Notes: generated by a model from the letters alone, not told the origin. A DNA stretch of 64,000 nucleotides from Eledone cirrhosa (GCA_964016885.1 OZ024740.1:403744001-403808000), one strand, 5' to 3'. Shown: positions 1,917-14,196, counted from the first letter of the stretch. Numbers and translations are program-made.

Positions 1917-2799
1917 AATCATATATATATATATATATATATATATATATATATATATATATATATATATATATATATATATACATATATACATACATAT
2001 ATACATATATATATATACATATATATATATATATACATATATATATATATATATATATATATATATATATATATATATATATTTTAGTTATGTAATAAAG
2101 AACATAAGATAATTATTTCATTTACCAGTGGTTCTTTGAAGGCAGATGTTATGTCTGTCTTCAGTCGTCAGAATGAATAAATAACATGGTGTTTTTATTA
2201 AATATGGATTTGAAAACAAAATTTAGGAAATATGAAAGTGAGGCTGAAAAAACGGGCAAAAAGGAATAAGTGGGAAAAAAAATATAGAAATAAATATCCA
2301 AAACATAAACATACACACACTCAACCACGCGCATATACGTAATAGTACGTAGACGTATACTTTCTCACATAAGCGTATTTGCGTCTACATGGAAATACGA
2401 ACAGGAACATAAATACATACACATACATATACACAAATATATATGCACTCAAATATGTACACACAAATACACACACATATAAAAAGAAGGTATACACATA
2501 CATATATATACATATATACAAACACAAAAACACAAAACCAAAAAGCTCTATACATACGCGCACGTGTATATACACATACATATATATATACACACACACA
2601 CGCGTACACATACATACCCATACACATATATATACATACACACATACATATATCTATAAGAAAATCAAAATCAAAATAAAGTAAAAAAAGGGACGTGTCG
2701 ACAACGAAAGGTGTGTTACACACACACACGCATATATATATATATATATATATATATATATATATATATATATATATAGAGAGAGAGAGAGAGAGAGAG

Positions 2800-3304
2800 A
2801 GAGAGAAGGTGAAATTGGAAATACCACGGAAGGATCTGCTTTTCTTTTTTTTTCCTCTCTTTGAAAAAATACACATATTTACAGAATATCTCCCCTCTCC
2901 CTAAAAACAATTTTGCTATGTGTGAAAAAACACAACTACCACCACTGCTGCTACTACCATGACAACCTCTCTCTATAGACACAAAATTACATTTTCCAGT
3001 CTTCTTCTCGACAAGAAACACGAAAAGACTTGCCTCAACGCTTAATTTTAAATCTTTAATTTTAAATTTTAATTCTTATTAATTCTTTTAAACATTTGAT
3101 AAGATGGATTTTACTAATACATCGAAACCGGTTATACTTTATATATTTTATATACCTTATAAAACTCTTTTTTAAAAGAATTGTCCCACTCATTTTTTCA
3201 ATAATGTCACTTTGACGAATCAAAGAAAAGAAAAAAAAACAAAAAAAACAACAAATCCTTAAATATATTTTCCGTGCTATTTCCAATTTCACCTTTTCTC
3301 TATA
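2800..3304 (+). mobile_element. pLTR-like element with short inverted ends and a hammerhead variant
   Basis: aaggtgaaattggaaataccacggaa (~2806) vs ttccgtgctatttccaatttcacctt (~3270-3295); TTGATAA-GATG..CATC-GAAA-CCGG-TT at 3096-3133. Confidence 0.6.
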
Positions 3305-3721
3305 ACTTCTGCTTTGTATAGAACCATACTTCCCTTTTCAAATATGTATATTAAAATATGTTATTTTAATATATATATATATATATATATATATATATAT
3401 ATATATATATATATATACAAAATTTAGTACACCATCAACGAAGCCATGGTTGCAGCCAAGCTAACGAATGCAGTTTCGGTGTGTAGCTAAGCACTCGAAA
3501 GGGTATATAACCCTAGAGTGCTTAGCTGCACATTACGTTTAGACAGCTTATATATATATATAACCATATATAGAAATATACAGATACATGTGGGCACATA
3601 CATATACATGAATATATCCACATATATCTTTGAATTAGTGGTGCCAACCTCAACCGATGTTGCTCTATAAATAACTGGGACAAAATAATCCGAATTGATT
3701 AGATTGATTCAGTATCAGAGC

Positions 3722-4165
3722 TATATAATACATTATAAAGAGAGAAGAAACATTAGATATAATTAATAATAAGATATATCATACCTAAACTCCTTCTTTA
3801 CTCCCCGACTACGTAGTATCGTGGCATATTATGCAAAAACACTACATCACAGAGGTATAGAATTTTTGTGAGGTTTGCCGACTTATCAAGAGGATACCTC
3901 ATTTAGAGTTTCAAAACACGTCCGTAGGACGCGAGATAGAATCCCAAAAGGCGGAGGGGGATTCTATCTCGCGTCCTACGGACGTGTTTTGAAACTCTTG
4001 ATGAGGTATCCTCTTGATAAGTCGGCAGACCTCACAAAAATTCTATATCTCTCTAATGTAGTGTTTTTGCATAATATGTCGAGGAGTAAAGAAGGAGTTT
4101 AGGTATGATATATCTTATTATTAATTATATCTAATGTTTCTTCTCTCTTCATAATGTATTATATA
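3722..4165. repeat. Fold-back palindrome, ~210-bp arms, 12-nt loop (second copy at ~12707-13150)
   Basis: Arms symmetric about ...gatagaatccc-aaaaggcggagg-gggattctatc... Confidence 0.95.
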
Positions 4166-10566: not shown

Positions 10567-10585
10567 GTCATTGTTCCAGGCCTGG

Positions 10586-13500
10586 AACTATTTTTAATTT
10601 AGTTAACCTATAATTAATATTCTACTACTGATGAACTACATAATTTTGCTTTCCTTCTTACAAATATCATTTCCTAAAACTGATACCATTAAGTAAACAT
10701 ATATAATGCTTTAACTTCAGGTTATGACTCTATGTTCCTTGAAAACTATATATATTTACTATTTCTCACTAATAAATTTAATCCCCCCCCCCACACCCAA
10801 TAATTATATGTATATATAAGTGTATATGTATATGGGAAAAAATGGTAAATAATGACATATATGTGTATATATATGTATATGTATATATATATGTGTGTGT
10901 ATATGTGTGTGTGTATGTGTATATATATGTATATATATGTATATATATAAGTGTATATATATATATATATATATATATATATATATATATATATATATGT
11001 GTGTGTGTATGTGTATATATATGTATATATATATATATGTATGAGTATATATATATATATATATATATTATTTTTATATTCTTTTAATTTCCCCTCATCT
11101 TTAACACCACTTTTCAACTGCATCTAACTCTTATTTATCATATCTATATGTATTAGTATAATTTTATCAATATAAATATACCCATCAATTAAATTAATTT
11201 ATATTATTTTCATAGATGTATTTTTTTCACTAACATTCTTATCTTAAAACTTTAGTCACCTTAGATATTTGTATTGGCATTACTATTTTATAACAGCAAC
11301 TGCTTGTATACCTTTTACTGACCACCTGACCTATTTTCACCCCTAAAATAAGCTTCAATTACTACTATTTTACCATTTGGCCAATTATTAACTTTCTATT
11401 GGTTAATTCTAAACCTCTTACCAAACAGACAGAATATATTAGATCTTTGTTGGTTTTATTCAATGAAAAAATAAAATTATTTCTGAGGTCAGCATAAGAC
11501 CTATTTCTTCCCTAAAATAATCCTTCATTCATAATATTCTTTTGCATCCAAAACTGAAATCTACCTTCCTCTACCCATAATTTAAGGTTCTTCTACTACT
11601 ATATTACTATCCTGACCCTCACTATCTCTCTATTGGTCAATTCAAAACCTGTTCCCAAACAGACCTATTGTATTGAATCTTTGTTTTTTTCAATAAACAA
11701 ATATCATTATTTCTGAAGACAGCATATATATGTGTAGGTATGTATATTCCCTCTGATAGTTTGTATAAATATTGTACATAGATCTATAGAATATGCATAC
11801 CAACTCTAACACATATATATATCCTAGAAACGATCGTAAAATGATGAATTTTTTTTAATATAAGGAACTGTTTCTTTGTTTATTCATTATTTTATTAATT
11901 TATATATATATATATATATATATATATATATATATATATATATATATATATATGCGTATATGTGTGTATATATATATATATATATATATATATATATATA
12001 TATATATATATATATATATATATATATATATGTGTGTGTGTATGTATGTGAATGTGTCTGTCGACACCTGGAATATAGCTTAAGAAAAATTTTAAGATAA
12101 TGATATGATAGGCACCCAATATTTTGAACTGGTTTATAGAATTCTCTTGGCCTTTGTCACTCTAAGTAGAACTTTAAAGAATTAGCTTTTAAAGAATTTC
12201 CCTTTTCTTTAAATCCTTCAACCATGACCGACCCCCAACGATCTTATAGACACCTGAAATATAGGCATTGTTAGCTTAAGAGAAACTTAAAATTCTTTCT
12301 GCCTTTGTCACTCTAAATATAAATTATAGCTTTAAAGAATTAGCTTTTAATGAATTCCTTTTCTATCAACCAATGACCTTTAACCATCCCACTCCCACCC
12401 TCTCCTACCACCTGAAAAGAGCTATAAATACAACATTTATTTTTGGAAAGCCAGATTCCTGATGATCTCTAAAGAATGAAACAGTTCTAGTCCTGTAGAA
12501 TCTCATCTATATATATATATATATATATACATATATATATATATATATATATATATATATATATATATATATATATATATATAATTGTTTCTACATTTGG
12601 CACAAGGCCAGCAATTATCCCAGTGTATTACTGGTGCTTTATTTTATCGACCCCGTAAGGATGAAAGGCAAAGTTAACCTCGGCGGGATTTGAACTCAGA
12701 CCATAATATATAATACATTATGAAGAGAGAAGAAACATTAGATATAATTAATAATAAGATATATCATACCTAAACTCCTTCTTTACTCCTCGACATATTA
12801 TGCAAAAACACTACATTAGAGAGATATAGAATTTTTGTGAGGTCTGCCGACTTATCAAGAGGATACCTCATCAAGAGTTTCAAAACACGTCCGTAGGACG
12901 CGAGATAGAATCCCCCTCCGCCTTTTGGGATTCTATCTCGCGTCCTACGGACGTGTTTTGAAACTCTAAATGAGGTATCCTCTTGATAAGTCGGCAAACC
13001 TCACAAAAATTCTATACCTCTGTGATGTAGTGTTTTTGCATAATATGCCACGATACTACGTAGTCGGGGAGTAAAGAAGGAGTTTAGGTATGATATATCT
13101 TATTATTAATTATATCTAATGTTTCTTCTCTCTTTATAATGTATTATATAGCTCTGATACTGAATCAATCTAATCAATTCGGATTATTTTGTCCCAGTTA
13201 TTTATAGAGCAACATCGGTTGAGGTTGGCACCACTAATTCAAAGATATATGTGGATATATTCATGTATATGTATGTGCCCGCATGTATCTGTATATTTCT
13301 ATATATGGTTATATATATATATAAGCTGTCTAAACGTAATGTGCAGCTAAGCACTCTAGGGTTATATACCCTATCGAGTGCTTAGCTACACACCGAAACT
13401 GCATTCGTTAGCTTGGCTGCAACCATGGCTTCGTTGATGGTGTACTAAATTTTGTATATATATATATATATATATATATATATATATATATATATATATA

Positions 13501-14196
13501 TATATATATATATATATATATTAAAATAACATATTTTAATATACATATTTGAAAAGGGAAGTATGGTTCTATACAAAGCAGAAGTTATAGAGAAAAGGTG
13601 AAATTGGAAATAGCACGGAAAATATATTTAAGGATTTGTTGTTTTTTTTGTTTTTTTTTCTTTTCTTTGATTCGTCAAAGTGACATTATTGAAAAAATGA
13701 GTGGGACAATTCTTTTAAAAAAGAGTTTTATAAGGTATATAAAATATATAAAGTATAACCGGTTTCGATGTATTAGTAAAATCCATCTTATCAAATGTTT
13801 AAAAGAATTAATAAGAATTAAAATTTAAAATTAAAGATTTAAAATTAAGCGTTGAGGCAAGTCTTTTCGTGTTTCTTGTCGAGAAGAAGACTGGAAAATG
13901 TAATTTTGTGTCTATAGAGAGAGGTTGTCATGGTAGTAGCAGCAGTGGTGGTAGTTGTGTTTTTTCACACATAGCAAAATTGTTTTTAGGGAGAGGGGAG
14001 ATATTCTGTAAATATGTGTATTTTTTCAAAGAGAGGAAAAAAAAAGAAAAGCAGATCCTTCCGTGGTATTTCCAATTTCACCTTCTCTCTCTCTCTCTCT
14101 CTCTCTCTCTATATATATATATATATATATATATATATATATATATATATATATATATATATATATATATATATGCGTGTGTGTGTGTGTGTAACA
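10586..14196. repeat. Right arm of the 3.5-kb inverted duplication
   Basis: Reverse complement of 2714-6234, with a few SNPs, small indels and microsatellite length differences. Confidence 0.97.
12453..12503 (+). ncRNA. Type I hammerhead ribozyme (mirror of 4347-4397)
   Basis: agattcCTGATGAtctctaaagaatGAAAcagttctagtcctgTAgaatct. Confidence 0.75.

What the first reader, a model, noticed from the sequence alone, without database searches (positions are those of the whole stretch)
2714..14196. 11.5-kb fold-back unit: possible Penelope retrotransposition with a multi-kb 3' transduction
Seen: 3.5-kb near-identical inverted arms (2714-6234 / 10586-14196). The right arm begins where PLE-B is 5'-truncated (~10580). 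The arms contain unrelated cargo (SINE, palindrome, other pLTRs, microsatellites). Known: PLE insertions often end 5' in an inverted copy of their own 3' end; the 125-bp version is in this window at 34693/37902. Inference: a read-through RNA running ~5.5 kb past the PLE-B pLTR was reverse transcribed, then folded back over its 3'-most 3.5 kb. PLEs would then move and palindromically duplicate multi-kb flanking DNA.
Basis: partly seen in the sequence, partly recalled or inferred. Interest (0 to 1): 0.75.

Follow-up and report, generated by a model that had tools for sequence, protein, structure and literature searches.

The report
In-place fold-back duplication in Penelope debris
The 3.5-kb mirror-image duplication is in the assembled sequence and its two arms are nearly identical, but no source copy was found elsewhere in the genome and its ends lack the marks of Penelope insertions, so it likely arose in place when a broken DNA end folded back and was repaired, a known kind of rearrangement, not when a jumping gene carried flanking DNA to a new site.

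Summary
Arms confirmed: 2714-6234 and 10586-14196, 7 substitutions in about 2,865 non-microsatellite bases, 4.35-kb spacer. The inner junction cuts a young Penelope-like element (PLE-B) at 10587, with 2 bases of microhomology, at the end of a 14-bp palindrome. Transduction is not supported. Four DNA searches and one exact-pattern search found no donor. The left outer junction cuts an older repeat whose remainder is not on the right flank, so there is no clean empty site. Ordinary PLE-B inverted insertions end at two fixed start sites beside TA runs (46 of 46 ends); this unit does at 0 of 2. PLE-B looks older than the arms, and no RNA-editing bias is seen. Best reading (0.6): in-place break, fold-back priming and rejoining, as described for human inverted duplications. 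One locus (L054) shows a Penelope arm taking in 125 bp of flank, so a role for the element's enzyme stays open. Public read sets could not test the junctions. Earlier unreviewed notes on other DNA of this genome report twin-primed inverted insertions and small in-place fold-backs.

The parts
2083..2716 (.). Older dispersed repeat (E then F) in the left flank, cut at 2713-2716; its last ~60 bp are missing
   Evidence: (15 of 17 printed paralogs continue into a G-run and a shared 40-bp tail)
2714..6234 (+). Left arm; outer junction shares 3 bases (2714-2716) with the cut repeat
2778..3345 (.). Old repeat end with a short inverted arm of its own (79-88% to paralogs); only the two arms match it at 100%
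3549..4165 (.). Palindromic repeat remnant, 91-94% to many copies
4166..4288 (+).
   Evidence: five or more other copies in the window at about 91-97%
4343..4790 (.). Repeat end holding the arms' only G-quadruplex-like motif (4450) and the cluster of arm differences
4932..6895 (-). PLE-A: 3' fragment of a young high-copy Penelope-like family, Hydra-like endonuclease end; runs unbroken from the left arm into the spacer
6235..10585 (.). Single-copy spacer (the predicted loop): rest of PLE-A, two other repeats, PLE-B
8179..10587 (-). PLE-B: 3' 2.4 kb of a young 4.26-kb Penelope-like element (RT plus C-terminal GIY-YIG), tail-less start beside a TA run, private stop at 9652-9654, cut at 10587
9310..9337 (-). 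Template of the 28-bp copy found in the right arm
10574..10587 (.). Natural 14-bp palindrome of PLE-B ending exactly at the breakpoint; last 2 bases are the microhomology
10586..14196 (-). Right arm, inverted copy of 6234-2714
10832..10859 (+). Exact 28-bp match to PLE-B 9337-9310 (25 bp net insert), absent from the left arm and from all 20 other PLE-A segments printed
12359..12467 (.). Cluster in the right arm: three derived substitutions and a 1-bp deletion in 110 bp
14197..14369 (.). Right flank; single-copy in the assembly, not the remainder of the cut repeat

Best explanation
This is a 3.5-kb inverted duplication with a 4.35-kb spacer that likely formed in place, when a break in an already resident PLE-B copy let the single-stranded end fold back, prime on 2 matching bases and copy the right arm, after which the structure was likely opened and joined to a second broken end. 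Shown: arms, spacer, junction sequences, the 28-bp templated piece, the cut older repeat, no donor found. Inferred: the order of events and the polymerase (host repair). The version needing no coincidence has the ancestor as left flank, a now deleted stretch, the spacer in the opposite orientation, the right-arm sequence, right flank. The right-hand broken end folds back, the hairpin is opened at 2714, and the freed end joins the cut repeat through 3 shared bases. The mirror version (left arm and spacer in their original place) needs the copy to stop by chance at an old junction.
For: No donor: 2600-4800 (40 of 10,100 candidates scored), 6880-8400 (40 of 7,914), PLE-B 9900-10587 (40 of 3,195), 2790-3345 (40 of 3,200: two hits at 100%, next full-length 88% or less), and one exact match in 3.0 Gb for a 30-mer with two private PLE-B variants. 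The cargo includes pieces 12% or more diverged from paralogs, so a donor would be an old locus. The left outer junction cuts a repeat whose remainder is not within 274 kb. Outer ends 0 of 2 at a PLE start site or TA run, against 46 of 46 ends of 23 PLE-B inverted insertions. PLE-B has 9 private changes in 1,931 bp against 7 arm differences over 2 x 2,865 bp (p = 0.008). No editing bias (T>C 12, A>G 10 of 88 departures). The right arm looks newly made: templated piece, mutation cluster, 4 of 4 long TA tracts longer. Spacer size, 2-bp microhomology and a templated insertion match human fold-back duplications (PMC3907307 passages).
Against: No read or orthologue test succeeded, so neither the junctions nor the ancestral order is shown. 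The right outer junction cannot be called ancestral because that flank has no paralog. A cDNA folding back on itself would give the same inner junction, templated piece and exactly matching outer ends. 2-3 bp of microhomology also occurs at ordinary PLE-B inner junctions (0-7 bp in 6 of 9, short gaps in 3), so it does not discriminate. The age test can be biased by variants inherited from unsampled source elements and by conversion between arms (up to 6 shared private variants in an ordinary inverted pair). L054 shows Penelope ends at a small flank duplication.
Confidence: 0.6

Rival explanations
1. In place, but made by a Penelope reverse transcriptase: it copied a local read-through RNA or the flanking DNA, and the product folded back and replaced the original stretch.
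For: Needs no donor elsewhere. L054: one arm starts with 27 nt of the PLE-A start site at a TA run, then jumps into 125 bp of flank before the element. A Penelope protein cleaves and extends both target strands in vitro (PMC11167929 section 3). cDNA snap-back onto nearby DNA is described for R2 (PMC11371274 passages). Both families are young and abundant.
Against: Neither outer junction has a PLE start fragment or TA run. Flank capture was clear in 1 of 39 inverted PLE-A/PLE-B loci and small. No editing bias although the RNA would hold a 440-bp hairpin. The local PLE-B has a stop codon.
Confidence: 0.17
2. One reading: a read-through RNA from a donor elsewhere was reverse transcribed for 7.9 kb, folded back or was twin-primed over 3.5 kb, and inserted here with deletion of target DNA; the donor is missing from the assembly.
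For: Both arms stop at the same base; the inner junction cuts PLE-B; the right arm holds a PLE-B piece in the matching orientation. Host DNA capture between pLTRs is reported in a rotifer (PMC3846280 passages). Unreviewed notes report long RNA copies in this genome.
Against: No donor in five searches; flanks not an empty site; synthesis would have to start 5.5 kb from PLE-B's fixed start sites and away from a TA run; no editing bias.
Confidence: 0.13
3. Assembly or library artefact: chimeric reads, or two haplotypes joined in inverted order.
For: No spanning contig was listed. An assembly gap lies 4.2 kb before the window start. Arm differences are at a level that alleles could show.
Against: It needs two separate chimeric joints, each with only 2-3 shared bases, one cutting a repeat, plus a 4.35-kb spacer and a templated insert; no N in the window; derived changes on both arms.
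Confidence: 0.07

Closest known systems
Fold-back inverted duplications with a disomic spacer (human; PMC3907307, passages read)
   Same: Single-copy spacer of a few kb (median 3,428 bp there, 4,351 here), 2-bp inverted microhomology (7 of 13 there), a short templated insertion from nearby sequence.
   Different: [quoted passage not shown] Parental or ancestral structure is not available here.
Inverted (head-to-head) insertions of EN+ Penelope-like elements (PMC8557442, PMC3846280 passages; PMC11167929 section 3 part 1 and passages)
   Same: Head-to-head arms, a 5'-truncated element at the inner junction, short microhomology; very common in this genome (24 of 35 PLE-B and 15 of 36 PLE-A stretches).
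   Different: Those arms are the element's own 3' end, start at the tail or no-tail site and abut TA runs. Here PLE-B's 3' end is not in the arms, 2.2 kb of mixed older cargo is, and neither outer end fits.
cDNA snap-back junctions of R2-mediated insertions (PMC11371274, passages read)
   Same: A 3' end primes on its own strand or nearby DNA before joining.
   Different: No primed 3' element end at either outer junction here; arm lengths in that system were not read.
LINE 3' transduction (recalled; no call)
   Same: Would give element plus downstream cargo at a new site.
   Different: No donor found, no poly(A) end or target duplication visible at the outer junctions.

Membership tests
PLE inverted insertion | Element encodes RT and C-terminal GIY-YIG endonuclease | tested here: met
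   922-aa ORF in an intact copy with a weak RVT_1 match (E 3e-4) and a GIY-YIG-like end with two inner cysteines and a CX4CxxC linker read by eye; window copy 97.8% identical. No tree built, so the clade is by motif only.
PLE inverted insertion | Arms consist of the element's own 3' end | tested here: not met
   PLE-B's end (8179) lies in the spacer; arms are PLE-A's end plus 2.2 kb of other repeats
PLE inverted insertion | Outer ends at the tail and no-tail start sites | tested here: not met
   0 of 2, against 46 of 46 ends, 22 of 23 pairs having one of each
PLE inverted insertion | TA-run target or target-site duplication | tested here: not met
   Outer flanks printed: no TA run, no duplication
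3' transduction | Donor locus with same cargo and longer element | tested here: not met
   (one assembly; best 40 candidates scored per DNA search)
3' transduction | Flanks form an empty site | tested here: not met
   Remainder of the cut repeat is not at the right flank; a target deletion could hide it
3' transduction | Sign of an RNA intermediate | tested here: inconclusive
   No editing bias; absence is not proof; no intron available to test
Fold-back inverted duplication | Single-copy spacer between inverted copies | tested here: met
   6235-10585
Fold-back inverted duplication | Inverted microhomology at the spacer-arm junction | tested here: met
   2 bp; weak, since 134 of 1,000 simulated junctions reach 2 bp in PMC3907307
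Fold-back inverted duplication | Duplicated DNA native to the locus, shown against an unrearranged allele | not testable with these tools
   No relatives held for G000; contig lays uninformative. Only indirect support from the missing donor.

The most novel reading that the evidence does not exclude
A Penelope reverse transcriptase made the unit, copying 8 kb of neighbouring DNA or read-through RNA and turning 3.5 kb of it into a palindrome; L054 would be the small version. Penelope elements would then be a source of kilobase-scale inversions and inverted duplications of host DNA in repeat-rich animal genomes.
Probability: 0.28. Interest if true: 0.65.

Novelty: new member of a known kind. Interest (0 to 1): 0.3.

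Why it matters
As read here it is one well-preserved natural fold-back duplication in repeat debris, with no gene affected that I could see: low importance. It is a useful caution that an inverted duplication breaking inside a Penelope copy can mimic a Penelope fold-back insertion, and the tail/no-tail plus TA-run test separates the two. If the element's own enzyme were responsible, it would add multi-kb palindromic duplication of host DNA to what these elements do; in three literature searches on Penelope and snap-back terms I saw no such report, which is a narrow search.

Tried and rejected
Public contigs: the first lay (4 runs, 6400-16300) was swamped by repeat copies; the second (4 runs, 13240-14440) showed no cover of 14101-14346, where repeats were skipped. 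No bridging piece was listed for any junction, and this proves nothing either way. L172 first looked like a 2-kb cargo duplication but is PLE-A's own tandem sequence; half of the L054 extension is PLE-A's 156-bp tail. L046 has 52 bp of mirrored flank that may be two separate repeat ends; left open. Gene conversion from a paralog as cause of the right-arm cluster: none of 18 paralog loci has that haplotype and both arms keep a shared rare base inside the cluster. The fold-back as part of PLE-B's own insertion: disfavoured by the age test. PLE-A tail calls were unreliable (several tails missed) and were not counted. Left out of the PLE-B pair count: L132 (altered tail), L128 (second end not found), L151 (internal arm). 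Rfam gave only microsatellite noise below cut-offs, no hammerhead. Pfam did not detect GIY-YIG in these proteins. A larger inversion with the missing pieces nearby: none in 274 kb.

Full report
Observation. The inverted repeat is in the sequence. Five unmasked blocks align at 97.8-99.9%, and a global alignment places the arms at 2714-6234 and 10586-14196 with a 4,351-bp spacer. In about 2,865 non-microsatellite bases the arms differ by 7 substitutions, one 1-bp deletion and a G-run difference. Where paralogs give the ancestral state, three changes are on the left (3591, 4406, 5553) and four substitutions plus the deletion on the right (3499 rests on one paralog). All four long TA tracts are longer on the right: 47/65, 49/67, 54/76 and 97/131 bp. 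The window has no N; the nearest gap is 4.2 kb upstream of it.

Anatomy. The region is a nest of repeat ends separated by TA runs. PLE-B (8179-10587, minus strand) belongs to a young family with a 4.26-kb unit and a 922-aa ORF, RT followed by a GIY-YIG-like end with a Neptune/Nematis-type linker by motif (motifs from PMC8557442 passages; no tree). The window copy has 9 private changes in 1,931 bp, one making a stop. PLE-A (4932-6895) is a second young family, Hydra-like by motif, and runs unbroken from the left arm into the spacer. The rest of the arm is older cargo, down to about 86% identity with paralogs.

Junctions. Inner: PLE-B stops at 10587 and the right arm starts with 2 shared bases. 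The break lies at the exact end of a natural 14-bp palindrome, one of three of 12 bp or more in PLE-B (noticed after the fact). 250 bp into the right arm is an exact 28-bp match to PLE-B 9337-9310, absent from the left arm and from the 20 other PLE-A segments printed. Left outer: an older repeat is cut at 2713-2716; 15 of 17 printed paralogs continue into a shared sequence that is absent from the 274 kb examined; 3 bases are shared. Right outer: the flank is single-copy and is not that continuation, so the two flanks are not a clean empty site.

Donor search. Four DNA searches of the own genome (40 best candidates scored each, of 3,195-10,100) found nothing linking the cargo pieces except the two arms. 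The sharpest are, where only the arms match the old 556-bp piece at 100%, where a 30-mer with two private PLE-B variants occurs once in 3.0 Gb. A donor holding such old cargo would be an old locus, so its absence counts, though a gap or lost allele is possible.

What ordinary Penelope fold-backs look like here. I fetched 35 stretches around PLE-B hits and 36 around PLE-A hits, chosen by similarity to the window and not at random. 24 and 15 carry inverted arms of the element. In 23 PLE-B insertions with both ends in view, all 46 ends lie at one of two fixed sites 60 nt apart beside a TA run, and 22 pairs have one of each (tallied by hand). This fits priming from both target strands at two start sites, as shown in vitro (PMC11167929, section 3 part 1 and passages), and agrees with unreviewed notes on other DNA of this genome. 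The 11.5-kb unit has neither mark at either outer end, and PLE-B's own end is not in its arms. Flank capture was clear once in 39 loci (L054, 125 bp plus a TA tract, with a 27-nt PLE-A start piece at the outer end) and doubtful once (L046). In 474 kb of contiguous sequence, 28 inverted-pair rows passed 100 bp and 95%; none of the other 27 had an arm over 2.3 kb, and by their end sequences most are element fold-backs, though I inspected only one in detail.

Age and RNA marks. PLE-B's private load exceeds the per-arm divergence (p = 0.008; inherited variants and arm conversion weaken this). Departures from family majority across arm and spacer show no editing bias, 12 T>C against 10 A>G among 88.

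Mechanism. The simplest account needs no donor and no coincidence. An ancestral locus had the spacer in the opposite orientation ahead of the right-arm sequence. A break in PLE-B was resected; the 3' end folded back 4.35 kb, primed on 2 bases and resynthesised the right arm, slipping once onto the single-stranded loop and erring at a G-rich motif. The hairpin was opened at 2714 and the freed end joined to the cut repeat, deleting what lay between. All these steps are inferred. Template switching at a replication fork would give the same product. Spacer length, microhomology and templated insertion match human fold-back duplications (PMC3907307 passages). I give this 0.6, a local role for a Penelope enzyme 0.17, transduction from a missing donor 0.13 and artefact 0.07.

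Limits. Two lays of public contigs could not test the junctions, and no relative genome is held, so reality and ancestral order rest on the assembly alone. Papers were seen as passages (PMC3846280, PMC8557442, PMC3907307, PMC11371274) or one section part plus passages (PMC11167929); no supplements were opened. Four literature searches ran. The SINE label and LINE 3' transduction features are recalled, not tested. Verdict: a recent inverted duplication of a known kind; interest 0.3.

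Noticed in passing
L054:3839-7427: PLE-A inverted insertion whose left arm starts with 27 nt of the element's no-tail start at a TA run, then jumps by about 6 shared bases into 125 bp of the right flank, the TA tract and the tail: a small inverted flank duplication with a Penelope mark.
   Followed up: partly
L121-L155, L048, L204-L210: 22 of 23 PLE-B inverted insertions pair a tailed end with a tail-less end; in L131 and L145 the tail-less arm reaches further 5' than the tailed arm, so it cannot be a copy of it.
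   Followed up: yes
L136, L137 (G000:C6:65.20-65.23 Mb): Tandem array of near-identical 4.26-kb PLE-B units, at least one with an open 922-aa frame.
   Followed up: partly
L046:1392-1443 / 7042-7092: 52 bp mirrored beyond both TA runs of a PLE-A inverted insertion; flank copy or two separate repeat ends.
   Followed up: no
window 48596-56827: 8.2-kb satellite of a 16-bp partly self-complementary unit, about 514 copies at 97%.
   Followed up: no
window 43696-46843: LINE with endonuclease and RT frames, broken into two ORFs.
   Followed up: no
window 29990-30885: Mariner-like remnant (Mos1-type HTH) between 103-bp inverted repeats.
   Followed up: no
window 58100-62862: Partial-tandem element with PLE-A-like endonuclease ends and a 115-bp inverted pair at 61574/62862.
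   Followed up: no
G000:C3:150113563-150119032 and 150074539-150076326: Young tandem arrays of short units with an inverted part, 99-100% identical.
   Followed up: partly
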